The notes beneath the pieces are model-generated. The model was not told the DNA's origin. It searched no databases and saw only the letters and a list, made by a program, of their open reading frames with translations. Positions 16,353 to 47,421 of a stretch of 49,526 nucleotides of DNA are shown here, in pieces. Both the position numbers and the translations under genes were made by a program. Origin of the DNA: a phage; sequence record PZ296778.1. One strand, given 5' to 3'. The stretch's first letter is position 1, and each line of letters begins with the position of its first letter.

Positions 16353-16374
16353 CCCGCCTTGCGCGGGTTTTTTT
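16353..16374 (+). terminator. intrinsic terminator after lambda I-like gene
   Basis: CCCGC-cttg-GCGGG hairpin followed by T7. Confidence 0.65.
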
Positions 16375-16423
16375 GTGCCTTTATAATGTGCAAACCAAGA
16401 AACAGCACAAAAGGTTAAAAGTC

Positions 16424-19400
16424 ATGGCTAAATATATGATAAGCGGCAGTAAGGGAGGCGGTCAAAAGCCCTACGTGCCAAAAGAGATGGAAGATAACCT
16501 GATCTCGATAAACAAGATTAAAGTTTTGCTGGCTGTATCTGATGGCGAGTGCGATCCAGATTTTACGTTGCGTGATCTTTATCTTGATGATGTTCCGGTT
16601 ATTGCCAGCGATGGCACTGTTAACTACGAGGGAGTTACGGCTGAATATCGACCAGGCACGCAGACGCAAGATTACATCCAGGGTTTTACTGACACATCAA
16701 GTGAGGTTACAGTTGCCAGAGATATTACCGGAGACAATCCTTATGTTATTTCTGTTACAAATAAAAATCTATCTGCGGTAAGAATAAAGATCCTGATGCC
16801 AGTAGGCATTAAAACAGAGGATAACGGCGATCTTGTTGGCGTAAGGGTTGAGTATGCCGTAGATATGGCTGTTGATGGCGGTTCTTATAGCGAGGTTATG
16901 AGAGATGTAATTGACGGCAAGACAAGATCAGGATACGACCGCAGCAGAAGGATTGATCTTCCTAAGTTTGATGAGCGCGTTTTAATCCGAGTAAAGCGAC
17001 TGACTCCAGACAGCACATCTTCAAAGGTGACTGATAAAATCAAGCTGCAAAGTTACGCTGAGGTTGTTGATGCAAAATTCCGCTATCCTCTGACTGGACT
17101 TGTATTCGTAGAATTTGACAGCGAATTGTTTCCTACGCAAATCCCTAACATTTCTATAAAAAAGAAATGGAAGATTATTAATGTGCCAAGCAACTATGAT
17201 CCAATATCAAGAGAATATCACGGGTCATGGGATGGGACTTTTAAAAAAGCGTGGTCAAATAATCCTGCTTGGGTTCTTTATGATCTGGTGACAAATCAGC
17301 GTTATGGACTTGATCAGCGAGAGTTAGGAATACAGATCGACAAGTGGAGCTTATACGAGGCGGGCGTTTACTGCGATCAGAAAGTTCCAGACGGTAAAGG
17401 CGGCACTGAGCCTCGCTACCTATGCGATGTGGTGATTCAGAATCAAGTTGAGGCTTATCAGCTAATCCGTGACATTTGCTCAATCTTTCGCGGAATGAGT
17501 TTTTGGAATGGTGAGAGCTTATCAATCGTGATTGATAAGCCGCGCGATCCATCATACGTGTTTACTAATGAAAACGTCATCAACGGTGATTTTCAGTACA
17601 CAAACGCAAGCGAAAAAAGCATGTACACGCAGTGTAACGTGACGTTTGACGACGAACAAAACATGTATCAGCAGGACGTAGAGGGGGTTTTTGATACTGA
17701 GGCGGCATTACGATTTGGATACAACCCAACAAGCATTACAGCGATCGGGTGTACGCGCAGGAGCGAAGCGAATCGTCGCGGTCGTTGGGTTTTGAAAACA
17801 AACCTTAGAAGCACTACTGTAAACTTTGCTACCGGACTAGAGGGGATGATTCCATCAATAGGTGATGTTATTGCTATCGCTGATAATTTTCAGAGTAGCA
17901 ACCTAACGTTAAACCTATCGGGCCGAGTAATGGAAGTTTCAGGGCTGCAGGTTTTCGTTCCGTTTAAGGTTGATGCTCGCCCTGGTGATTTTATTATCAT
18001 CAACAAGCCGGACGGCAAGCCAGTTAAGCGCACGATCTCAAAGGTTAGCGCAGACGGAAAAACCATTGAGTTAAATATTGGATTTGGTTTTGATGTTAAG
18101 CCTGATACTGTTTTTGCGATTGACCGTACTGATCTTGCGTTGCAGCAATACGTTGTGACAACCATCAGCAAGGGTGATGACGAAAACGAGTTTACCTATT
18201 CAATCACGGCTGTAGAGTACGATCCGAACAAATACGACGAGATTGATTATGGAGTAAACATTGATGACAGACCGACTTCAATTGTTCAGCCTGACGTGAT
18301 GGCAGCGCCTGAGAACGTTAAGATCTCATCTTATTCTCGCGTCGTGCAGGGTGTTAGCGTTGAGACTATGGTTGTTTCATGGGATAAGGTTCCTTACGCA
18401 TCGCTTTATGAAATGCAGTGGCGAAAAGGTGATGGTAACTGGCTGAATACGCCGCAGACCGCTAACAAAGAGATAGAGGTAGAAGGGATTTACTCTGGCA
18501 ACTACCAAGTAAGGGTGAGATCCGTTTCTGCAAGCGGTAACGCTTCCCCGTGGTCAAAGATTGCAACCGCCACTCTGACAGGTAAAGTTGGCGAGCCAGG
18601 AGCGCCGATTAATCTTACGGCTTCTGATAATGAAGTTTTTGGCATTCGTGTCAAATGGGGTATGCCGGAAGGATCAGGCGATACGGCTTACATTGAGCTT
18701 CACCAATCGCCAGACGGAACGGTTGAAAACTCAAGTCTGCTTACGCTGATTCCATATCCTCAATATGAGTATTGGCATAGCACGTTACCAGCGGGGCAAG
18801 TTGTATGGTATAGAATCCGCAGCGTTGACAGAATAGGCAACGTTTCAAGCTGGACTGACTTTGTTCGCGGCATGGCGTCAGATGACGTTGAATCTGTTTT
18901 GGGCGACATTCTGGACAAGATTTTTGATACAGAAGCTGGTCAAGAAATCAAAGAGAACGCCATAGACAGTGCCAATAAAATCAAAGACCAGGCGCAATCA
19001 ATCATACAGAACGCGTTGGCAAATGATGCAGATGTGAAGTGGACACGAGTGCAAAACGGAAAGCGCAAGGCTGAATATGGTCATGCTCTTGAGCTTATCG
19101 CCAATGAAACAGAAGCGCGCGTAACTCAAATCGAAGAGTTAAGGGCTTCAATTGATGGCGAGATAACATCAAGCATCAAGACAGTGCAGGAGGCAATTGC
19201 CACTGAATCAGAGACGCGAGCGACTCAAATTCAGCAGCTTGATTCTAAATTCACAAAAGAAATCGACGGCGTGCGCAAGGATACTTCTGCAAGCATTAGC
19301 GATGTAAGGCAGACAATCACTAACGAGTCAGAAGCGCGCGCTCAGGCCGTTCAGCAGCTTGACGCTAAGTTCACGAAAGAGATAAACGACCTTGACGGAG

Positions 19401-20002
19401 TTATCAAAACAGAAGTCGAGGCTAACATCTCAGAAGTGAAACAGGCGATCGCCAATGAGACAGAGGCAAGGGTTCAGGCTGACCAGGCATTAACAGCACG
19501 ATTTGGCGACGTTGAATCTGCATTGGTTGAAAAGTTGGATTCTTGGGCGAGCGTTGATTCAGTTGGCGCTAAATACGCTATGAAACTTGGCCTTACTTAC
19601 AAAGGCCAGCAATACAGCGCAGGAATGGTGATGCAGCTTTCGCAGGGTTCATCCGGCCTTATCTCGCAAATTTTGTTTGATGCTAACAGGTTCGCCATTA
19701 TGACTAGCTCTACTGGAGGGACTTTTACTTTGCCTTTCGTGGTTGAGAATAATCAGGTTTTCATTAATAGTCTTTTGGTGAAGAACGGTTCAATCACTAA
19801 TGCGATGATTGGTAATGTGATTCAGTCAAACAACTTTGTTCAAAACCAGCAAGGATGGAGGCTTGATAAAAACGGAATCTTTGAGAATTACGGATCAACG
19901 CCAGGAGAAGGAGCTACTAAATTCACCAATGAGGGATTGAAGGTAAAAGATGCAAACGGAGTATTGAGGGTTGAAGTCGGAAGGATTACCGGAAGCTGGT
20001 AA
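16424..20002 (+). CDS. central tail fibre / host specificity protein (lambda J-like)
   Basis: About 1190 aa; recognisable similarity to lambda J (VPSNYDPISREYHGSWDGTFKKAWSNNPAWVLYDL, GVYCDQKVPDGKGGTEPRY); start moved to MAKYMISG because track start 16373 lies inside the upstream terminator. Confidence 0.9.
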   Translation: MAKYMISGSKGGGQKPYVPKEMEDNLISINKIKVLLAVSDGECDPDFTLRDLYLDDVPVIASDGTVNYEGVTAEYRPGTQTQDYIQGFTDTSSEVTVARDITGDNPYVISVTNKNLSAVRIKILMPVGIKTEDNGDLVGVRVEYAVDMAVDGGSYSEVMRDVIDGKTRSGYDRSRRIDLPKFDERVLIRVKRLTPDSTSSKVTDKIKLQSYAEVVDAKFRYPLTGLVFVEFDSELFPTQIPNISIKKKWKIINVPSNYDPISREYHGSWDGTFKKAWSNNPAWVLYDLVTNQRYGLDQRELGIQIDKWSLYEAGVYCDQKVPDGKGGTEPRYLCDVVIQNQVEAYQLIRDICSIFRGMSFWNGESLSIVIDKPRDPSYVFTNENVINGDFQYTNASEKSMYTQCNVTFDDEQNMYQQDVEGVFDTEAALRFGYNPTSITAIGCTRRSEANRRGRWVLKTNLRSTTVNFATGLEGMIPSIGDVIAIADNFQSSNLTLNLSGRVMEVSGLQVFVPFKVDARPGDFIIINKPDGKPVKRTISKVSADGKTIELNIGFGFDVKPDTVFAIDRTDLALQQYVVTTISKGDDENEFTYSITAVEYDPNKYDEIDYGVNIDDRPTSIVQPDVMAAPENVKISSYSRVVQGVSVETMVVSWDKVPYASLYEMQWRKGDGNWLNTPQTANKEIEVEGIYSGNYQVRVRSVSASGNASPWSKIATATLTGKVGEPGAPINLTASDNEVFGIRVKWGMPEGSGDTAYIELHQSPDGTVENSSLLTLIPYPQYEYWHSTLPAGQVVWYRIRSVDRIGNVSSWTDFVRGMASDDVESVLGDILDKIFDTEAGQEIKENAIDSANKIKDQAQSIIQNALANDADVKWTRVQNGKRKAEYGHALELIANETEARVTQIEELRASIDGEITSSIKTVQEAIATESETRATQIQQLDSKFTKEIDGVRKDTSASISDVRQTITNESEARAQAVQQLDAKFTKEINDLDGVIKTEVEANISEVKQAIANETEARVQADQALTARFGDVESALVEKLDSWASVDSVGAKYAMKLGLTYKGQQYSAGMVMQLSQGSSGLISQILFDANRFAIMTSSTGGTFTLPFVVENNQVFINSLLVKNGSITNAMIGNVIQSNNFVQNQQGWRLDKNGIFENYGSTPGEGATKFTNEGLKVKDANGVLRVEVGRITGSW

Positions 20003-20028: not shown

Positions 20029-20655
20029 TTAATCATAGTGTGATGCATTTATAACCAAAACAGATGAAGCGGTGTAAATACCAACAGGTCCAGGAGTTTG
20101 TGCAACCTGCCTAGAAAAAGAGTAGATCCCGTTACCATACGCGGCAGCTTGAGACTCAAAAATCATGAATCCACCTAAAGCCGGATTAGGAACAGAGTTT
20201 AATGCTGTCAGTGATGGCATTATGGCGCAAGGATAGCCCATGTTAACATCAAATGCGATCCCGCTTACGCCTACTTGCTTTGCATCTAGCGGCCTCATTT
20301 TTCCATGATAAACCATTTCACCATGAGCATTATAAAACGCTATGCCGTGACTACCTGGGGGAGTCACCATATTACTAAAAGCATAAACAATAACCTCACC
20401 CTGATTATCAGATCTATCAAGTCTTATTGCGTGCCTTCCACCATTGTTAAATTGCGTGAATGATATGTATGATTTAGCGGTCAATCTAACAAAGAAAAAA
20501 CATACCCTATCAACAGGAATTGACGAAGTAAAAACGGTTCCGGTATTAGCAGATATTACGGCCCGATCAATTAGATTAACTGGAGTGAAATCTGGACTTA
20601 ACCATAACGATCCGTCTGATTTTTTTATACTCATCCCGTACATTATCACCCCCAA
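20029..20655 (-). CDS. hypothetical protein (third gene of lipoprotein operon)
   Basis: 208-aa ORF; track start is a TTG inside a T5G5 run overlapping the upstream ORF by 10 nt; an ATG lies 4 codons in. Confidence 0.4.
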   Translation of the reverse strand: MGVIMYGMSIKKSDGSLWLSPDFTPVNLIDRAVISANTGTVFTSSIPVDRVCFFFVRLTAKSYISFTQFNNGGRHAIRLDRSDNQGEVIVYAFSNMVTPPGSHGIAFYNAHGEMVYHGKMRPLDAKQVGVSGIAFDVNMGYPCAIMPSLTALNSVPNPALGGFMIFESQAAAYGNGIYSFSRQVAQTPGPVGIYTASSVLVINASHYD

Positions 20656-20924
20656 AAAGTATATATATATCTTGAATCAGATCCAGAAAGCCCACTCCAT
20701 GTAACGGTGTCGCCACTAACCCCTAAGTTTGGTGCGCCAGGGTCGCCACCACGCCAGGAATTCATGCCAACATATATTGCTTTCAATGATTTACCTGGCG
20801 GCCTGTTTTGGTAAGTCTTGCTACCTGATGGCTGAGTGAATTTATCAAGGAAGAAAACAGGCGTTAAAAGTCCTGTAACTTCCCTTCCTCGATCGTCATA
20901 TATTGCATAACCATATTGCGCCAT
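20646..20924 (-). CDS. hypothetical protein
   Basis: 92 aa; start overlaps the lipoprotein stop (TAATG). Confidence 0.4.
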   Translation of the reverse strand: MAQYGYAIYDDRGREVTGLLTPVFFLDKFTQPSGSKTYQNRPPGKSLKAIYVGMNSWRGGDPGAPNLGVSGDTVTWSGLSGSDSRYIYTFWG

Positions 20925-21199
20925 TAATTACACCTCAAATCAATAAATTTACTTTCATTTTGCCAACGGTTGATAAATTTAACTTCTTTATTGTCAACGC
21001 TCAACCTGTATTGCTTTTGGCTGAATCTGTTTTCGCGGACTGCATTAATTTTGACTTCATGGAATCCGTTAACAGGGAATGTTTTAACGTTAAATTTTGC
21101 CGTGCAATCGATCTCCTTGAAGTTGCCAGTAGGCGACGCTGCGCATCCTGTCAGAGCGGCTACAGTGGCGATAACTGCGATTAACTTTTTCATCTTCAA
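20924..21199 (-). CDS. lipoprotein (candidate Cor/Llp-type superinfection exclusion protein)
   Basis: 91 aa; signal peptide plus lipobox (AALTGC); RBS aaggag; first gene of a leftward operon next to the tail genes. Confidence 0.55.
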   Translation of the reverse strand: MKMKKLIAVIATVAALTGCAASPTGNFKEIDCTAKFNVKTFPVNGFHEVKINAVRENRFSQKQYRLSVDNKEVKFINRWQNESKFIDLRCN

Positions 21200-23083: not shown

Positions 23084-23740
<657 letters not shown>

Positions 23741-30905: not shown

Positions 30906-31324
30906 TGGCTATAACTGATAAAGGAGATTATCTTGAGTTTTACGAAAGAGATCCAACCGACACGAGAAAGGAAGTTAATCACCAGATAGATAGCTTTCAG
31001 TGGTTGACTTATGCTCATCCTTATTTGCTAGCGTGGCATACGGTAAACGAGAATGAGAAGTCGAAAGTAACGGCGATGATTGATCAGCAGTCCGGCTTGG
31101 TTAAGGGGGTAAGCGATTTCATCATCCTGATTGGTTCAAACGGAAAATACCCCTTTGCAGCGATTGAGATCAAACGAGTTAATAAATCAGGCAAGGGGAA
31201 AGCATCACCAGTCAGCGATGAACAAAAGGCTTTTTTGCGTCGCGTTCGCAGCTTAGGAGGATTCGCTGCGGTCGCCTACGGATTTAATCAGTTTAAGTTA
31301 GCTATTGAATACATGCTTAAATAG
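30905..31324 (+). CDS. VRR-NUC family nuclease (putative)
   Basis: 139 aa; PD-(D/E)XK-like GVSDFIIL...AIEIKR; start overlaps helicase stop; stop TAG is part of a motif copy. Confidence 0.55.
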   Translation: MAITDKGDYLEFYERDPTDTRKEVNHQIDSFQWLTYAHPYLLAWHTVNENEKSKVTAMIDQQSGLVKGVSDFIILIGSNGKYPFAAIEIKRVNKSGKGKASPVSDEQKAFLRRVRSLGGFAAVAYGFNQFKLAIEYMLK

Positions 31325-31340
31325 CACTTTTTGTTAAAAC
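31321..31340 (+). promoter_or_regulatory. conserved intergenic motif copy F3
   Basis: ATAGCACTTTTTGTTAAAAC; its TAG is the VRR-NUC stop codon; followed by hairpin TGGCGC...GCGCCA. Confidence 0.65.
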
Positions 31341-34450: not shown

Positions 34451-34941
34451 TGAGCATAAAGAACAGGGTAGCGGCTGCGGCCTTTGGCGTTGCGGTTGCC
34501 TTGACTTCTCCACTTCTTGAAGAGATCGAAGGGGTAAGATACAAGCCATACAAAGATATTGCTGGAGTATGGACGGTTTGCGCAGGAATCACCGGACCAG
34601 ATGTTATCCTGGGGAAAACGTACACTAAAAAAGAGTGTGATGCTTTGTTGGCTAAGCATATCCAGGTTGCTAAAAAGGAAGTTGACAAGCAAGTTAAGGT
34701 TGATATTCCTGATAGTATGCGTGCAGCAATGTACTCATTCACTTACAATGCAGGTGTGGGAGCTTTCAGAAATTCAACAATGCTGAAACTCATCAACCAG
34801 GGGAAATTAAACGAGGCTTGCGATCAGCTTTATCGTTGGACTTATTACCATAACCCAAAAACAGGAAAGCGCGAGAAGTCTAAAGGCTTACTTAACAGGC
34901 GCAAGGTCGAATACAAATATTGCACAATGGATCTGAAATGA
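34450..34941 (+). CDS. endolysin (GH24 lysozyme)
   Basis: 163 aa; catalytic-triad spacing E-x8-D-x5-T ([16 protein letters not shown]) as in T4 lysozyme. Confidence 0.85.
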
Positions 34942-35333
34942 TGAAGAATTTTTTACTTACACCAATCGCAATGGCGGTGATCTTGTCTGGATGTTCAAGC
35001 GTTACGCCACTGACCGGATTAATCGGCAGTAAGCCGGAAATCACAGCACAGGCTGGAGCGGAGAACGTGAAGCAGACAGTTGGCATTACAGCAAAGCAGG
35101 ACGCCAGCACAAAACAGGAAACCACAATAAAGGAATCTGCGGTTGACAAGGTGGACACGTCCAGCAAGAAGGATTTCACAACATCAACCATTCAGGCCAA
35201 TACCATCAAGGCAGACAAAATTCAGGTCGTGCAGGGTAATAACGGCAGATGGTACGATCCAGTAATCATATGCGTGGTTGTGTTTCTTGTGCTGATTTGT
35301 CTTTACTGGAGAGAAAAGAAAAAGGAGGCTTAA
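34938..35333 (+). CDS. unimolecular spanin (T1 gp11-like)
   Basis: N-terminal lipoprotein signal with lipobox (ILSGCSS) plus C-terminal transmembrane helix ([16 protein letters not shown]); last gene of the lysis cassette. Confidence 0.65.
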
Positions 35334-38580: not shown

Positions 38581-38600
38581 CTTTTAACAAAAAGTGCTAT
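38581..38600 (-). promoter_or_regulatory. conserved intergenic motif copy R6
   Basis: CTTTTAACAAAAAGTGCTAT; contains the stop TAG of the methyltransferase gene on the minus strand. Confidence 0.6.
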
Positions 38601-39314
38601 TTTGAGTTTGACTCAAAGACGGCGCGAGCAAAGCCGCGCGGAGTGAGGGAGCGGATCATCTTTGTGCGCGATGACTTGCCGCCAGTTTTGGCCCAGCCTG
38701 GATTATCTTTGTCTTCCTCTTTCGGCAGGATTAAAGCGCGTGGAGGAATAACAAAGCCGTTGCCAGTCCAGAGGCACGTTTTCTTAAAATAGCGATCACG
38801 CGCCGGAATAATATCAGGGAAGTCGGGATGTTTATCATCTTCCGGCAGATAGCCAGCGTAATCGCACGGATGGAACGTATAATCAGGCTTACGCCATAAC
38901 GTTGACAACTTGCCAACCGGATTTTCGATCATGTAAGGAACACCGAAATAATCAGCTATATCAGCCGCGATTCTGCAAGTGTCGGCGGCCTCATCCTGGA
39001 ACGATGGATTCTCAAGGCGTTTTTTGGCCCAATGGCGAGATCCGCTATTTGCAAGGTCGGTGCACGGCGGAAATGCCATAATAAAATCAGGATTGCCCCA
39101 CTCATTATTGATTGCCTTAACATAAAAAGCATCGTCAATCCAGACGTTAACGTATTCGATATTCTCATGCTGTATGCGCACTGACTGGTAATCACCGTGA
39201 TCGCCACCGTCAGCATTAAAGCAAATGCACTTATAGCCATTATCAGCCCAATCTTTAACGGCTTTACCAGATCCATCAAATAGGGAGAATATTAAACCTT
39301 TATACATCGTCATT
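38597..39314 (-). CDS. DNA cytosine-5 methyltransferase (small, putative)
   Basis: Motif I LFDGSG, catalytic PC motif AFPPCTD, ENV-like motif MIENPVG; start at MTMYKG after RBS gagg; stop TAG within motif copy R6. Confidence 0.6.
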
Positions 39315-40032: not shown

Positions 40033-40245
40033 TCATTTCTTATTTTTCATCTTAAATTTATGGCCTAGAACACCAGCACCAATATAGCCATCGTTGTATT
40101 CCATTAAATAAAGGTGAAGGCCATTATCTGAAATTACATGAGGATCTTCTTTGAGATTTCCCATTAGCGGGTATTCTTTTCCGCGCGTAAATCTCCAAGT
40201 TGAGTCATAAGTTTCTACGCATTTAAGTTTTAATTGCTTTGCCAT
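40033..40245 (-). CDS. hypothetical protein
   Basis: 70-aa ORF; overlapping start/stop with the upstream gene. Confidence 0.4.
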   Translation of the reverse strand: MAKQLKLKCVETYDSTWRFTRGKEYPLMGNLKEDPHVISDNGLHLYLMEYNDGYIGAGVLGHKFKMKNKK

Positions 40246-40442
40246 TAGATGATCTCCATGTATGTTTCAAAGCCATTTAACTTGAACAGGCCGTTTTCAC
40301 ATTTGCGAACGTTCCAAGTTAGCCCTGAGTGGTACGCCTCCATATCATCAAGGTCAATGGTGATTTCAGCACCTTTCTTAAACAAACCTTTTTCGTGAGA
40401 CTTGTCGCGCTTAACAACTTTAACATCAACCTGATTTTCCAT
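40245..40442 (-). CDS. hypothetical protein (first gene of leftward early operon)
   Basis: Start moved to MENQVDV after RBS gagga; the track start at 40565 would read through motif copy R7 and its hairpin. Confidence 0.4.
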   Translation of the reverse strand: MENQVDVKVVKRDKSHEKGLFKKGAEITIDLDDMEAYHSGLTWNVRKCENGLFKLNGFETYMEII

Positions 40443-40496
40443 CTTTAAATCCTCGTTTGTTGTCGATGCGCTTACTATACCAATCAGCAGCGCATC

Positions 40497-40517
40497 GTTT
40501 TTAACAAAAAGTGCTAT
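40497..40517 (-). promoter_or_regulatory. conserved intergenic motif copy R7
   Basis: GTTTTTAACAAAAAGTGCTAT at the head of the leftward early operon; followed on the minus strand by hairpin GATGCGCT...AGCGCATC, RBS and ATG. Confidence 0.6.
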
Positions 40518-40565
40518 TTGACGGTTAGCACCAGGATTGTGATCGAAATAATCAAAAGTAATCAT

Positions 40566-41131
40566 TCGTAATCAAATCGCGTCAAAATGATGATTGCCTT
40601 TGCAAATTTGATGAGAAAAGCAATCACGTTTAATCATTGGTTGCAGGGGAGATAGTGAAACCTTCCCCTCTTGCCTCACTTTTCCGCCTGGCTGTCAGCG
40701 GTTGTTGTCTTTTGTTCACCCCTGTTACCGATTTCAGGCGGCGTGTTTCCGCGCGGTTTTCCGGTGTATCGAAAACGGAAAAAACAAAAAAAATCCTTTA
40801 TAATACATTGAAAATAAAGATTATTTATTTATATATATCTATAATGTTTTCTTTTTGTTCTCACTGTTACAGTGCTTTTTGTTGGGTGTGGTGTTGTTGT
40901 GTGTTGGTATATATGGATAGTTGCGCGCGCGGCGGATTGCATATGTATATATACTTTTTCCGGCGGATTGCGTTAACAGCGTGAACAGAAAAATAACAGC
41001 CCTGAAATCAATAACTTGCGCATGATTTTGTAGTTTTTCGATATTGGTAACGTTTTGAATACAACAAAAACATTGACACGCACCAAATAGCTTTTATAAT
41101 GCGCCAACAGTCAACAACTGGAGGAAAGGAA
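40566..41131. promoter_or_regulatory. AT-rich non-coding control region between divergent early operons
   Basis: About 565 bp; A-tracts shared with 21200-21694, direct repeat CGGCGGATTGC twice, GT-rich tract, consensus promoter at 41073; the track ORF 40637-40984 is judged spurious. Confidence 0.5.
41073..41100 (+). promoter_or_regulatory. consensus sigma70 early promoter for the rightward early gene array
   Basis: -35 TTGACA, 16-bp spacer, -10 TATAAT; A-rich upstream tract; about 30 nt before RBS ggagga and ATG at 41132. Confidence 0.65.
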
Positions 41132-41596
41132 ATGGAACAGAAGACCACTAAGGACTATTGCGATTGGCTTCGCGAACTTGGTCGCCGCCTGGCTAGTGGC
41201 GATATTGAAGAGTATAAAATGTCACTAATTGACCTGGCCGGAATGTTAAGCGGTGACGACTGCTACAAGATCACGCGCAGTTCATCCTACAGCCGGACCA
41301 TTATCAACCGCGTTCCAGAAGTAAGGGCCGCAGGTCGGGTAAGCATCAAGGTAGAGGAAACGGAAGATGATAAATTTTACGTTTTCCGCATGGTCCGCGA
41401 ATCGAAAAGGAAAATCATCACACCCGAAGAATTGCCAGCCATCAAGGCAAGGGCGATCAAAAAGTTTGCCGATCGCATACTGGCAGCAATCCCGAATATC
41501 GTTGACCTGGAAGGGGATAAACTGGCTGGGGCTTGCGAGGGCGTAAGCCGCTACCAGGATATGATCCGCGAAATCATCAAAGAGGAAGAGCAATGA
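41132..41596 (+). CDS. hypothetical protein (first rightward early gene)
   Basis: Start at MEQKTT after RBS ggagga, about 30 nt downstream of a consensus sigma70 promoter. Confidence 0.5.
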   Translation: MEQKTTKDYCDWLRELGRRLASGDIEEYKMSLIDLAGMLSGDDCYKITRSSSYSRTIINRVPEVRAAGRVSIKVEETEDDKFYVFRMVRESKRKIITPEELPAIKARAIKKFADRILAAIPNIVDLEGDKLAGACEGVSRYQDMIREIIKEEEQ

Positions 41597-41865
41597 AAAA
41601 GGCATTAATCAGCGTTTTGGCGGCAATGGCATTCCTGACCGGATGCAAAGAAGATGGCGCGCATGTTGGCAATGTGCAGATGGCTAACCCTGGCGATGAC
41701 TACAGCGTAAGGGAGCTATTCACCGCTGACGGTTGCACCGTTTACCGATTCTATGACGATCGCACTGTTTACTTCACCAACTGCAAGGGCACTACTAGCT
41801 GGGAAGTGTCGAAAAGCAATGGCAAAGGCACGAAGACAGAACATATGACCGTCGAGACAAAATAG
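41593..41865 (+). CDS. lipoprotein
   Basis: Start at MKKALIS (ATGA overlap); signal peptide plus lipobox LTGC; 90 aa; stop TAG is the start of motif copy F5. Confidence 0.55.
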   Translation: MKKALISVLAAMAFLTGCKEDGAHVGNVQMANPGDDYSVRELFTADGCTVYRFYDDRTVYFTNCKGTTSWEVSKSNGKGTKTEHMTVETK

Positions 41866-41881
41866 CACTTTTTGTTAAAAC
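41862..41881 (+). promoter_or_regulatory. conserved intergenic motif copy F5
   Basis: Exact 20-mer; TAG is the lipoprotein stop; followed by hairpin GCCAGGC...GCCTGGC. Confidence 0.65.
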
Positions 41882-41937
41882 GCCAGGCGCAAAGCCTGGC
41901 ATAATAGCCTCATCGAAACGAGATTGAGGAAACAAAA

Positions 41938-42123
41938 ATGGCACGTCGCATCACCAAAGACCTTAAAGTCCTGAACAAAGAAAACGTAGTTAAAATCCTT
42001 GTTATCTGGGGCTACAACGAAGAAACAGCAAAGCAGAAGGTAGAGGCAGGTTATGACCTGGCTGTAAAAGCAATGCCAAACGATGACGCCAAAGGCATTG
42101 CAAACTATGTAGCGTTCTTTTAA
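41938..42123 (+). CDS. hypothetical protein
   Basis: 61-aa ORF preceded by motif, hairpin and RBS gagga. Confidence 0.4.
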   Translation: MARRITKDLKVLNKENVVKILVIWGYNEETAKQKVEAGYDLAVKAMPNDDAKGIANYVAFF

Positions 42124-42138
42124 TTAGCAGGTGAATAG

Positions 42139-42324
42139 ATGAAAACGAAACTAGTCCATAAGTCAGAAATCAAGATCGGCGATACTGTGATTCACAACGG
42201 CGAGCTTAGAACGGTTGGCAAGGAGTCAATAAGCCACGATGAATTTATGGGGATCTTGTTGTTCGGTGACTCTTATCGTCTTGGTTACAAGATGGTTGAG
42301 CTTGTGGAAGAGGTCAAATTCTAA
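42139..42324 (+). CDS. hypothetical protein
   Basis: 61-aa ORF; stop TAA abuts motif copy F6. Confidence 0.4.
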   Translation: MKTKLVHKSEIKIGDTVIHNGELRTVGKESISHDEFMGILLFGDSYRLGYKMVELVEEVKF

Positions 42325-42344
42325 ATAGCACTTTTTGTTAAAAC
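42325..42344 (+). promoter_or_regulatory. conserved intergenic motif copy F6
   Basis: Exact 20-mer immediately after stop TAA. Confidence 0.65.
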
Positions 42345-42422: not shown

Positions 42423-43316
42423 ATGTTAAAACTTGCTGACATTAAATTCCCGATCACCTTCGAATCTCGCGGCATTGGTCATTACATTTTTACCGATGAA
42501 AAAACATGCCATAAGGTTGATATGAATAGCGACAAACTAAGCCCATCAGACATGGAGATTGAACACTTTATTGATGCGCACAATACGCAGTACAACGCAC
42601 TTAAAGACTATGGCTATGCAATGCCAGGATATACCAGCTTCCACTACAAGCCATATAAAGGCCAGGTGTTGCCAGTGCGCTCACCGGAACGCGCAGAGAT
42701 TCCGATGGTCGAGATGAAAACATGCGACTATAAAAAGCTGTGGTGCTTAAGTGTTGACAATATCAAGTATCCGATCACGTTCTACACGGTTGGTAATTCA
42801 ACGATTCGATTCACATCGCGCGACAATGGCGTTTATAGCGATGGTACGAAATCAGAGTTGAAAGTTGATTTCTTTGTCAACGGTCACAATAGATACAATC
42901 CGCACAACGAAAAAGATAAAGTGTATTACGTGGAAGATATTACAAAACACTTATTTGGAGAAACTCCATTCGGCGGCGGTAAGACGTCAATTCAAAAAAT
43001 CATTGGCGATGAGATCCACAAAGCGGCTGCCGAAATGAAAGCGCCTGGAGGCTGGCGTATTGACAAGAGCGCCTTTGCCTATCAAGAAATCGTAACGCAG
43101 GGCGCAATTGAAGATATGCCAGTTGCAGCCACGCTAAAAGGAGTCCGGCTTGATGACGGCACCTGGTATGAAGTAACGGCTACGCCAAAGACGATCGAGA
43201 TTCATGATGACGTTGTTATCCTTCTGCTTCACTACGGCGGCTATAAAAACCGGACGATTGCAGGTGAGATCAGCATTAAGCGCGGAACGATGGTTAAGTG
43301 GAAGGTCAAAGTGTAA
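42423..43316 (+). CDS. hypothetical protein with internal domain duplication
   Basis: 297 aa; two related segments (LADIKFPITFESRGIGHYIFTD / VDNIKYPITFYTVGNSTIRFTS); RBS ggaga. Confidence 0.5.
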   Translation: MLKLADIKFPITFESRGIGHYIFTDEKTCHKVDMNSDKLSPSDMEIEHFIDAHNTQYNALKDYGYAMPGYTSFHYKPYKGQVLPVRSPERAEIPMVEMKTCDYKKLWCLSVDNIKYPITFYTVGNSTIRFTSRDNGVYSDGTKSELKVDFFVNGHNRYNPHNEKDKVYYVEDITKHLFGETPFGGGKTSIQKIIGDEIHKAAAEMKAPGGWRIDKSAFAYQEIVTQGAIEDMPVAATLKGVRLDDGTWYEVTATPKTIEIHDDVVILLLHYGGYKNRTIAGEISIKRGTMVKWKVKV

Positions 43317-43336
43317 ATAGCACGAATTGTTAAAAC
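43317..43336 (+). promoter_or_regulatory. conserved intergenic motif copy F7 (variant)
   Basis: ATAGCACGAATTGTTAAAAC after stop TAA; followed by hairpin GTGGGGCC...GGCCCCAC. Confidence 0.6.
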
Positions 43337-47111: not shown

Positions 47112-47402
47112 ATGGCAAACAAAACTTACCGCAAACTACTGGTTAACGCTTTTGAAAACATCGCGCAGTGTAACAAGTGGAACGACTCTAAACACTCGCC
47201 AATCACAATGAAGCGCGCCGGATTCAAAAATGCTCGTTCATGGGCGCGAGCTTTCGCAGCTTGCTATATGCCGGATGGCGGACTAGGGGTGATGAACGAT
47301 TTTTTGATCAACATGATAGAGGAAGCGGCGCGAGAGGATCGACCGCTGACACAGCGAGATTTTGACGGCTTCGCGCGCGATGAGCTTTACTATCTGAGCT
47401 AA
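47112..47402 (+). CDS. hypothetical protein
   Basis: 96-aa ORF; stop TAA abuts motif copy F10. Confidence 0.45.
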   Translation: MANKTYRKLLVNAFENIAQCNKWNDSKHSPITMKRAGFKNARSWARAFAACYMPDGGLGVMNDFLINMIEEAAREDRPLTQRDFDGFARDELYYLS

Positions 47403-47421
47403 TAGCACTTTTTGTTAAAAC
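47402..47421 (+). promoter_or_regulatory. conserved intergenic motif copy F10
   Basis: Exact 20-mer after stop TAA; followed by hairpin AAGGGCA...TGCCCTT. Confidence 0.65.

What the first reader, a model, noticed from the sequence alone, without database searches (positions are those of the whole stretch)
41593..41865. Second small lipoprotein in the rightward early array
A 90-aa ORF with signal peptide and lipobox LTGC is translationally coupled to the first early gene and ends on the TAG of a motif copy. An early-expressed lipoprotein separate from the tail-adjacent one could be a second exclusion factor or an envelope modifier.
Basis: partly seen in the sequence, partly recalled or inferred. 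Interest (0 to 1): 0.4.

Follow-up and report, generated by a model that had tools for sequence, protein, structure and literature searches.

The report
Early phage lipoprotein of unknown function
The 90-codon gene is real and very probably makes a small lipid-anchored periplasmic protein early in infection by a T1-like coliphage, but it belongs to a catalogued, never-studied family (DUF4884), so its job is unknown.

Summary
The window is a T1-like coliphage (Drexlerviridae, Warwickvirus; 99.5% identical to phage tinuso). ORF 41593..41865 (+) encodes MKKALISVLAAMAFLTGC|KEDG..., a textbook lipoprotein signal peptide. Its ATG overlaps the stop of the upstream DUF7174 gene (ATGA). Its TAG lies inside a copy of the 22-nt repeat AAATAGCACTTTTTGTTAAAAC. 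The two-gene unit sits behind the only perfect sigma-70 consensus promoter in the 49.5-kb window.

The protein is a member of Pfam DUF4884. That family has about 1,800 clusters at 50% identity, nearly all 80-95 aa with a lipobox. It occurs in phages of diderm bacteria and in Pseudomonas chromosomes (one locus inspected looks like a mobile element). The identical protein is already in GenBank as "hypothetical" or "DUF4884 domain-containing".

A confident AlphaFold model (pLDDT 89.7) shows a five-strand beta-meander, and cysteine co-variation points to disulfide clamps. It matches no solved structure.

It is unrelated to the tail-adjacent Cor-like lipoprotein beyond the signal peptide. Its alleles do not track the cor cassette. 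Homologues also occur in LptD-targeting phages that have their own exclusion lipoprotein. No gene neighbour is conserved across phage groups.

So it is an accessory, mosaic, early periplasmic effector. A receptor-specific "second Cor" is unlikely, and the actual function is untested. Interest is modest.

The parts
41073..41100 (+). Sigma-70 consensus promoter TTGACA-16 nt-TATAAT upstream of the two-gene unit
   Evidence: 12/12 match. It is the only 12/12 match on either strand of the whole window. Activity is not measured.
41132..41596 (+). First gene of the rightward array: DUF7174 protein, 154 aa, no signal peptide noticed (not tested with a predictor)
   Evidence: Pfam PF23796, E=4.3e-51. 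It is the first rightward gene of this operon in Rtp, JeanPiccard and MatMar as well. Homologues occur in 233 phage records.
41582..41586 (+). Shine-Dalgarno GAGGA, 6 nt before the ATG, inside the 3' end of the upstream gene
   Evidence: Read directly from the sequence.
41593..41865 (+). DUF4884 lipoprotein gene (90 aa plus TAG). The ATG overlaps the upstream TGA (ATGA at 41593..41596).
   Evidence: Pfam PF16225, E=1.2e-7, 31.8 bits against a cut-off of 30. PHROG 6360 and 902, both of unknown function. dN/dS 0.13-0.6 among Drexlerviridae alleles. The identical protein is in GenBank.
41593..41643 (+). Signal peptide (residues 1-17): MKK, hydrophobic core, lipobox L-T-G
   Evidence: Passes the PS51257-type rule. 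Modelled as a helix, residues 3-16. It is the only part that resembles the Cor-like lipoprotein.
41644..41646 (+). Cys18 codon: predicted lipid-modified first residue of the mature protein. Residue +2 is Lys (not Asp), which by the E. coli sorting rule predicts the outer membrane.
   Evidence: The Cys column is at least 90% conserved in A1 and A2. +2 residues across the family: Asp in only 9 of 152. Lipidation and sorting are inferred, not shown.
41647..41862 (+). Mature domain: a roughly 20-residue variable tether, then a five-strand antiparallel beta-meander (residues 40-45, 48-54, 58-62, 66-75, 80-89) with the conserved core LFTxDGCTVYRFxD...YFTNCxG and the Cys48/Cys64 pair
   Evidence: AF2 model with 137 sequences, pLDDT 89.7. 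Conservation profile and Cys co-variation.
41860..41881 (+). Copy of the 22-nt direct repeat AAATAGCACTTTTTGTTAAAAC that contains the gene's stop codon
   Evidence: Exact copy, one of 14 in the window. The same repeat is described in phage TLS with unknown function (PMC11447400).
41882..41905 (+). Hairpin GCCAGGC-GCAAA-GCCTGGC (41882..41900) running into a -10-like CATAAT (41900..41905). Together with the repeat this is the putative promoter of the next gene (41938..42123).
   Evidence: MFE -15.9 kcal/mol, z=-4.5. The architecture of repeat, 16-18 nt spacer and -10-like hexamer is shared by the other copies. No T-tract follows, so it is not a canonical terminator.

Best explanation
The gene encodes a small prolipoprotein of the DUF4884 family.

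Shown by sequence: a canonical type-II signal peptide, translational coupling to the first gene of the rightward array, and a position directly behind the one perfect host-type promoter of the genome.

Inferred: host RNA polymerase transcribes it immediately after DNA entry. It is exported by Sec, lipid-modified at Cys18 by Lgt/LspA/Lnt, and sent by Lol to the inner leaflet of the outer membrane, because Lys rather than Asp follows the Cys. There a roughly 20-residue tether holds a disulfide-clamped five-strand beta-sheet domain of about 50 residues in the periplasm.

The conserved core is shared by phages with different terminal receptors, different morphologies and different hosts. The gene is also an optional, recombining, stand-alone cassette. 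From this I infer that it binds a conserved component of the diderm cell envelope, not the phage's own receptor FhuA. I further infer that it serves a conflict or protection function for the infected cell. Examples are receptor-independent exclusion of other phages or bacteriocins at a post-adsorption step, or protection of the envelope from outside attack.

The compartment and the timing are the well-supported part. The target and the phenotype are inference.
For: Gene and lipoprotein:
- ORF, ATGA overlap and Shine-Dalgarno.
- The lipobox rule is met by only three plausible genes in the window.
- The lipobox Cys is conserved in at least 90% of 137 diverse relatives.
- dN/dS 0.13-0.6.

Periplasmic fold:
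- Cys48 and Cys64 are present together in 135 of 137 sequences.
- A second CxxxC pair is present in 91, absent in 42 and single in only 1. That is the pattern expected of disulfides.
- AF2 model pLDDT 89.7.

Early expression:
- Only 12/12 sigma-70 promoter, at 41073..41100.
- The gene occupies the same operon position in Tempevirinae and Braunvirinae.
- In distant phages it sits in arrays of small non-structural genes.

Not receptor-cognate:
- hhalign against the Cor-like protein matches only the signal peptide.
- Phages with 98.6% identical cor-cassette protein carry 45-47% identical DUF4884 alleles (tiwna, atuna, mar001J1), and tonijn shows the reverse.
- Homologues occur in LptD-targeting JeanPiccard and in Rtp beside its LptDE-specific exclusion lipoprotein Rtp45.

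Accessory and mosaic:
- 119 phage records carry DUF4884 against 233 with the upstream DUF7174 gene.
- The slot holds unrelated small genes in Stevie, DanielBernoulli and K50.
- The Fulano1 allele is a hybrid of two allele types.

Stand-alone:
- In 85 phage loci, no neighbour family recurs in more than 8.
Against: - No experiment on any DUF4884 protein was found.
- Early timing is not measured.
- The outer-membrane sorting rule is an E. coli rule.
- Allelic diversity and optional presence fit many accessory functions, not only exclusion.
- Strong conservation of the core across phyla could equally mean a structural scaffold, with specificity lying in the variable tether and C-terminal strands.
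Confidence: 0.45

Rival explanations
1. It is a second receptor-specific superinfection-exclusion lipoprotein in the manner of Llp, Cor or Rtp45. It would bind the periplasmic face of one particular outer-membrane protein, a second receptor, and block adsorption of phages that use it.
For: It is a small, beta-rich, disulfide-containing outer-membrane-type lipoprotein made early, like Llp, Cor and Rtp45. Several divergent alleles exist within one genus, as expected for a specificity determinant. The variable tether and C-terminal strands could carry specificity.
Against: - There is no sequence or fold relation to Cor or to any solved chain.
- The gene is not next to the receptor-binding locus.
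- Alleles are unlinked to the cor cassette.
- The same conserved core occurs in phages of Serratia, Erwinia, Pseudomonas and Xanthomonas, in a large T4-like contig, and in a phage with queuosine genes. Known receptor-specific blockers are narrow, fast-evolving families.
Confidence: 0.15
2. It is a periplasmic inhibitor of an enzyme. The target could be a peptidoglycan hydrolase carried by incoming phage tails, or a host autolysin or protease. It would work like T4 Spackle or the MliC/PliC lysozyme inhibitors and guard the infected cell wall until programmed lysis.
For: The compartment, small size, lipid anchor and early timing fit. A conserved, aromatic-rich core shared across many phage and host groups suits a conserved enzyme target.
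Against: There is no Pfam, NCBIfam or structural similarity to Ivy, MliC/PliC, PliI, PliG or Spackle. No enzyme partner is encoded nearby.
Confidence: 0.1
3. It is an anti-defence or host-takeover factor aimed at an envelope-associated host system. Candidates are a membrane-anchored defence system, the Rcs or sigma-E stress sensors, or the TonB/Tol energy-transducing systems.
For: It lies in the immediate-early unit, next to divergent early genes that include a Gp54 'antiviral trigger' family member. Optional, mosaic cassette behaviour is typical of conflict genes. The family was seen only in phages of diderm hosts and in diderm genomes among the records sampled.
Against: No match in PADLOC and no conserved partner gene. 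Nothing ties the gene to any particular host system.
Confidence: 0.1
4. It is a lysis accessory (spanin-like) protein.
For: Spanin components are outer-membrane lipoproteins (established knowledge).
Against: The phage already has a u-spanin-like lipoprotein at 34941..35333. This gene is about 6 kb away from it, behind an early promoter. It has no C-terminal transmembrane segment and no partner i-spanin.
Confidence: 0.03

Closest known systems
Pfam DUF4884 (PF16225); PHROG 6360 and 902
   Same: This protein is a member. It scores above the Pfam gathering threshold. 21 of 23 nearest homologue clusters carry PF16225. It shares the core LFTxDGCTVYRFxD...YFTNCxG and the N-terminal lipobox. The identical sequence is labelled 'DUF4884 domain-containing protein' by UniRef and in some GenBank records.
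   Different: The Drexlerviridae clade, including this protein, has lost the second Cys pair (CGKxC) that 91 of 137 sampled members keep. The family has no known function, so membership explains nothing mechanistically.
Receptor-specific exclusion lipoproteins: T5 Llp (FhuA), T1/phi80 Cor (FhuA), Rtp45 (LptDE)
   Same: It is a small lipoprotein with a short mature domain, predicted to sit at the periplasmic face of the outer membrane, is probably made early, and is beta-rich (PMC9586334 and PMC12685063).
   Different: - Similarity to the phage's own Cor-like protein is confined to the signal peptide.
- No structural match was found in the PDB.
- The gene lies in the early operon, not beside the receptor-binding genes.
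- It is not linked to receptor type.
- Its distribution is far wider.
T4 Spackle (Sp) and other periplasmic exclusion factors such as P1 Sim
   Same: Early, exported to the periplasm, and protective of the infected cell against a second infection (established knowledge).
   Different: From my knowledge of Spackle, not tested here: it is a soluble, helical, non-lipidated protein specific for the T4 gp5 lysozyme. No sequence or fold similarity was found for the DUF4884 protein.
Phage 'moron' lipoproteins (lambda Bor, TraT-like) and spanins (Rz1, T1 gp11 u-spanin)
   Same: Phage-encoded outer-membrane lipoproteins.
   Different: Bor is a lysogenic-conversion gene of temperate phages, whereas this gene is in a virulent phage's early operon. 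Spanins sit in lysis cassettes and have partner or transmembrane segments, which are absent here.

Membership tests
Bacterial-type lipoprotein (signal peptidase II substrate; PROSITE PS51257) | Positively charged N-region (K/R within the first 7 residues) | tested here: met
   K2 and K3.
Bacterial-type lipoprotein (signal peptidase II substrate; PROSITE PS51257) | Uncharged hydrophobic core followed by the lipobox [LVI][ASTVI][GAS]C, with Cys at position 15-35 | tested here: met
   ALISVLAAMAF followed by L-T-G-C18. The rule is met by only 3 plausible genes in the window. The Cys column is at least 90% conserved.
Bacterial-type lipoprotein (signal peptidase II substrate; PROSITE PS51257) | Actual diacylglyceryl modification, LspA cleavage and membrane localisation | not testable with these tools
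   Needs globomycin or palmitate labelling, a C18A mutant and membrane fractionation. Outer-membrane sorting is only inferred from Lys at +2.
Pfam DUF4884 (PF16225) | Score above the curated gathering threshold | tested here: met
   31.8 bits against a cut-off of 30, E=1.2e-7, on residues 35-64. A profile of homologues finds 1,795 clusters at E<=1e-3 and 752 at E<=1e-10.
Pfam DUF4884 (PF16225) | Conserved core DGC-VYRF-D...YF-C and a length of about 80-95 aa | tested here: met
   F53 and D55 invariant. L42, F43, G47, C48, Y51, R52, Y60, C64, G77 and K78 are at least 90% conserved in 137 sequences.
Cor / Llp / Rtp45-type receptor-cognate exclusion lipoprotein | Sequence or fold homology of the mature domain to Cor, Llp or Rtp45 | tested here: not met
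Cor / Llp / Rtp45-type receptor-cognate exclusion lipoprotein | Gene placed beside the receptor-binding / tail-tip locus | tested here: not met
   The gene is at 41.6 kb. The J-like gene and cor cassette are at 16.4-21.2 kb. The position in the early operon is the same in 7 Drexlerviridae examined.
Cor / Llp / Rtp45-type receptor-cognate exclusion lipoprotein | Allele or presence tracks the terminal receptor | tested here: not met
   Alleles are unlinked to the cor cassette. The gene is present in FhuA-type phages, in LptD-type phages (JeanPiccard, Rtp) and in non-siphoviral phages.
Cor / Llp / Rtp45-type receptor-cognate exclusion lipoprotein | Expression blocks adsorption or infection by phages using the cognate receptor | not testable with these tools
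   Needs plating and adsorption assays.
Spanin (o-spanin or u-spanin) | Located in the lysis cassette, with a partner i-spanin or a C-terminal transmembrane segment | tested here: not met
   A separate u-spanin-like lipoprotein lies at 34941..35333. This protein ends in a polar beta-strand (...EHMTVETK) and lies in the early operon.
Single blade of a PQQ-type beta-propeller (lead from designer 'Cake' proteins) | Significant profile match to propeller repeats | tested here: not met
   With the 24-sequence profile, Cake chains scored E=2e-9 only by summing 8-9 identical repeats of about 3.5 bits each. With the 137-sequence profile no propeller is found even at E<=10. The AF2 model is a five-strand meander.

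The most novel reading that the evidence does not exclude
DUF4884 proteins are a widespread, so far unrecognised class of early phage effectors that act in the periplasm. In this reading, a lipid-tethered, disulfide-clamped mini beta-sheet binds a conserved envelope machine of diderm bacteria. Candidate targets are a component of the Lpt, Bam, Lol, Tol or TonB systems, or peptidoglycan. Binding would give receptor-independent exclusion or envelope protection. The variable tether and C-terminal strands would tune specificity, and the cassette would be exchanged freely among unrelated phages.
Probability: 0.3. Interest if true: 0.6.

Novelty: already known. Interest (0 to 1): 0.3.

Why it matters
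If the family turns out to have a defined envelope target, it would add a receptor-independent class to the few known periplasmic phage effectors (Llp/Cor/Rtp45, Spackle, Sim). It would also give a small, portable binder of a conserved outer-membrane or periplasmic machine, and it would annotate roughly 1,800 protein clusters at once. As it stands, the finding only confirms that an annotated hypothetical gene of T1-like phages is a probable early lipoprotein. That is useful for annotation and as a candidate for a simple plasmid-expression screen, but it is not surprising to a phage biologist.

Tried and rejected
1. Homology to the tail-adjacent Cor-like lipoprotein. hhalign matched only the signal peptide. 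Rejected.

2. Propeller-blade origin or a homo-oligomeric propeller. The Cake hits came from summing identical weak repeats and vanished with the deeper profile. Rejected.

4. Other libraries. NCBIfam returned only signal-peptide-level hits, and PADLOC returned nothing.

5. A conserved two-gene module with DUF7174. This holds only within Drexlerviridae as synteny. The upstream genes in Serratia, Pseudomonas and Xanthomonas phages are unrelated, and many DUF7174 phages lack DUF4884.

6. Guilt by association in 85 phage loci from IMG/VR and GenBank. No neighbour family occurs in more than 8 loci. ORF calling was naive and weak in GC-rich loci, where the antisense ORF displaced the gene in 12 loci.

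7. Literature. DUF4884 appears only in two gene tables. Searches for phage-encoded lipoproteins, T1-like early lipoproteins and SECphi27 plus lipoprotein found nothing relevant. A search for Drexlerviridae transcriptomes gave no time course for a T1-like phage.

8. Terminator after the gene. None by the consensus scan. The hairpin at 41882..41900 lacks a T-tract.

Full report
**What the window is.** A 2.5-kb stretch around the finding is 99.5% identical to Escherichia phage tinuso and 95-99% identical to dozens of other T1-like phages (Drexlerviridae, Tempevirinae, Warwickvirus). These include SECphi27 and BASEL phage FritzSarasin. The window therefore covers nearly a whole T1-like genome of about 50 kb.

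**The observation.** ORF 41593..41865 (+) encodes 90 aa: MKKALISVLAAMAFLTGCKEDGAHVGNVQMANPGDDYSVRELFTADGCTVYRFYDDRTVYFTNCKGTTSWEVSKSNGKGTKTEHMTVETK.
- The ATG at 41593 overlaps the TGA (41594..41596) of the upstream gene 41132..41596, and a GAGGA lies 6 nt upstream.
- The N-terminus has two lysines, a 12-residue hydrophobic core and the lipobox L-T-G-C18.
- A PROSITE-PS51257-type rule applied to all 1,294 start/ORF combinations of at least 40 aa in the window hits 7 distinct ORFs. Only three are plausible genes: this one, the tail-adjacent lipoprotein 20924..21193(-), and a u-spanin-like protein 34941..35333(+). The other four are out-of-frame or antisense ORFs inside larger genes.
- The stop codon TAG (41863..41865) lies inside an exact copy of AAATAGCACTTTTTGTTAAAAC (41860..41881). 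There are 14 copies with at most 3 mismatches in the window against 0 expected.

The only correction is that the phage has three predicted lipoproteins, not two.

**Is it a real gene?** The exact protein is in GenBank for phages tonn, swan01 and others, as 'hypothetical protein' or 'DUF4884 domain-containing protein'. Homologous genes occupy the same operon position in Warwickvirus, Hanrivervirus, Rtp (rtp3) and JeanPiccard. Pairwise dN/dS among eight Drexlerviridae alleles is 0.13-0.6, although dS is saturated for the distant pairs. The coding sequence is therefore under purifying selection.

**Family.**
- Pfam DUF4884 (PF16225) is matched above its gathering threshold (31.8 bits against 30, E=1.2e-7). 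PHROG 6360 and 902 are also matched, and both are of unknown function.
- The word-indexed search found 23 homologue clusters, 21 of them carrying PF16225.
- A profile search of 1.84 billion representatives found 1,795 clusters at E<=1e-3 and 752 at E<=1e-10. Nearly all are 78-120 aa.
- A strict lipobox regex is met by 152 of 171 collected sequences, with the Cys at position 14-20 in most. The misses mostly carry variant lipoboxes such as LFGC, LYGC, FFGC or CSC.
- In an alignment of 137 diverse members, F53 and D55 are invariant. L42, F43, G47, C48, Y51, R52, Y60, C64, G77, K78 and the lipid Cys18 are at least 90% conserved. The roughly 19-residue segment after Cys18 and the C-terminal 10 residues are variable.

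**Cysteines.** Cys48 and Cys64 occur together in 135 of 137 sequences and are both replaced in the other two. A second pair, CxxxC in the last hairpin turn, is present in 91 sequences, absent in 42, and single in only one. This all-or-none behaviour is what disulfide partners show, and it fits a domain that folds in the periplasm. All Drexlerviridae alleles examined, including this one, belong to the subgroup that has lost the second pair.

**Expression context.**
- The two-gene unit of DUF7174 (41132..41596, PF23796, E=4e-51) and DUF4884 follows TTGACA-16-TATAAT at 41073..41100. This is the only 12/12 sigma-70 consensus match on either strand of the window.
- The 566-bp region upstream (40566..41131) separates leftward and rightward arrays of small genes.
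- Every later gene start in the array that I inspected is preceded instead by the 22-nt repeat, a 16-18-nt spacer and a -10-like hexamer. This repeat has been described for phage TLS, with unknown function (PMC11447400).
- No terminator-like site follows the lipoprotein gene.

I therefore infer that host RNA polymerase transcribes the pair first, immediately after DNA entry. This is inference, because I found no time-course data for a T1-like phage.

**Relation to the tail-adjacent lipoprotein.** Downstream of the J-like tail-tip gene (16373..20002) lie three leftward genes at 20029..21199. Homologues are annotated 'membrane associated protein' and 'outer membrane protein', and they occur in T1-like and Stx phages. 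The third gene is a 91-aa lipoprotein with a weak, full-length, sub-threshold match to NCBIfam 'phage exclusion lipoprotein Cor' (E=1e-3). This is the cor cassette associated with FhuA-using phages (PMC13164509). A profile-sequence comparison of the DUF4884 alignment with this Cor-like protein aligns only residues 1-22, the signal peptides.

**Is it tied to a receptor? No.**
- Phages whose cor-cassette protein is 98.6% identical to the window's (tiwna, atuna, mar001J1, Kalemo) carry DUF4884 alleles only 45-47% identical. MatMar, BEBK14 and Jahat are at 95-98% (cassette) against 56% (DUF4884). Conversely, tonijn is at 86.5% against 97.8%.
- JeanPiccard, whose terminal receptor is LptD (PMC8594841), has a DUF4884 gene.
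- Rtp has rtp3, a DUF4884 member, in addition to Rtp45. Rtp45 is the exclusion lipoprotein shown by cryo-EM to bind LptDE (PMC12685063).
- Members also occur in 68-kb Serratia and Erwinia myoviruses, Pseudomonas phage Dolphis, the 200-kb Xanthomonas phage X1, a 124-kb contig with T4-type RNA ligase, a 71-kb phage with queuosine genes, and Pseudomonas chromosomes. In the one chromosomal locus inspected (L009), the ORF translations suggested a reverse transcriptase, a cytosine methylase and an AlpA-like regulator; I did not run these through a family search.
- In all the phage cases the gene sits in arrays of small non-structural genes.

**Accessory and mosaic nature.** DUF7174 is found in 233 phage records and DUF4884 in 119. 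In Stevie, DanielBernoulli and Klebsiella phage K50 the slot after DUF7174 holds unrelated small proteins, none of them a lipoprotein. Within otherwise 95%-identical genomes at least four allele types exist. The Fulano1 allele joins the N-terminal half of the JLBYU26/tiwna type to the C-terminal half of the window type. In 85 phage loci (80 from IMG/VR) clustered by all-against-all BLASTP, no neighbour family occurs in more than 8 loci. ORF calling there was naive, but the result indicates that the gene acts without a conserved phage-encoded partner.

**Mechanism.**
- Shown: the coding potential, the signal peptide and lipobox, coupling to the first early gene, the consensus promoter, family membership, paired cysteines, the confident beta-meander model, and independence from the receptor locus.
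- Inferred from established lipoprotein biogenesis: Sec export, Lgt/LspA/Lnt processing at Cys18, and Lol-dependent transfer to the outer membrane because residue +2 is Lys rather than Asp. The domain would then hang into the periplasm on a roughly 20-residue tether.
- Inferred from distribution: the partner is a conserved envelope component of diderm bacteria, and the role is a conflict or protection function of the infected cell.

I put about 0.9 on 'exported lipoprotein', about 0.75 on 'early', and about 0.4 on 'receptor-independent envelope-level exclusion or protection'. The rivals are listed separately: a receptor-specific second exclusion factor, a periplasmic enzyme inhibitor, an anti-defence or stress-sensor blocker, and a lysis accessory.

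**Novelty and verdict.** The gene is already annotated, the identical protein is public, and the family is in Pfam and PHROGs. What is not known is any function, since no paper in the searchable library studies a DUF4884 protein. The finding is correct as an observation and ordinary as biology. It is a reasonable, cheap candidate for a plasmid-expression screen, but not a surprise. Interest 0.3.

Noticed in passing
window: 14 sites, e.g. 31319..31340(+), 38581..38602(-), 40498..40519(-), 41860..41881(+), 42323..42344(+), 43315..43336(+), 47400..47421(+): The 22-nt repeat AAATAGCACTTTTTGTTAAAAC always points in the direction of the gene downstream of it. It is followed after 16-18 nt by a -10-like hexamer, and about 25-35 nt later by an RBS and ATG. 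12 of the 14 copies are followed at once by a stable hairpin whose sequence differs from copy to copy and often spans the -10-like hexamer. For the 36 nt after the repeat, mean z is -3.0 against +0.18 for control 36-mers. The repeat is published for phage TLS with unknown function (PMC11447400). I did not see the hairpin association in the passages I read.
   Followed up: partly
window 40245..40565 (-): The listed 106-aa ORF matches Pfam PF25180 'phage antiviral trigger protein Gp54' (E=7e-38) only over residues 42-106. A repeat copy with a -10-like hexamer lies inside its 5' part. The real gene is therefore probably 40245..40442(-), 65 aa, starting MENQVDV.
   Followed up: partly
window 41073..41100 (+): This is the only perfect TTGACA-N16-TATAAT in the 49.5-kb window. 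The two 11/12 matches, at 23685(+) and 27438(-), lie inside long ORFs. It suggests that the DUF7174-DUF4884 pair is the one unit fully served by an unaided host-type promoter.
   Followed up: partly
window 20029..21199 (-): A three-gene cor-type cassette lies downstream of the J-like tail-tip gene. [quoted passage not shown] It also encodes a 91-aa lipoprotein with a weak full-length match to NCBIfam Cor (E=1e-3, below cut-off).
   Followed up: partly
window 34941..35333 (+): A third predicted lipoprotein ([18 protein letters not shown]..., 130 aa). By position it is probably the T1-type unimolecular spanin. I did not examine it further.
   Followed up: no
L013 1501..1767 (phage Fulano1) compared with window 41593..41865 and L015 1501..1761 (tiwna): The Fulano1 DUF4884 allele is a hybrid. 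Its residues up to about position 64 are of the tiwna/JLBYU26 type, and the C-terminal 'TTSWEVSKSNGK.T.TEHMTVETK' is of the window type, which implies recombination inside the gene. The upstream DUF7174 gene is also mosaic: the tiwna and atuna versions are only 30% identical to the window's.
   Followed up: partly
phage records labelled 'Campylobacter phage' (e.g. MG065643, MG065657, MG065681; about 50 kb): Several records deposited as Campylobacter jejuni phages match this T1-like coliphage region at the DNA level (18 records) and carry DUF4884 and DUF7174. They look like T1-like phages, so the host label may be doubtful.
   Followed up: no
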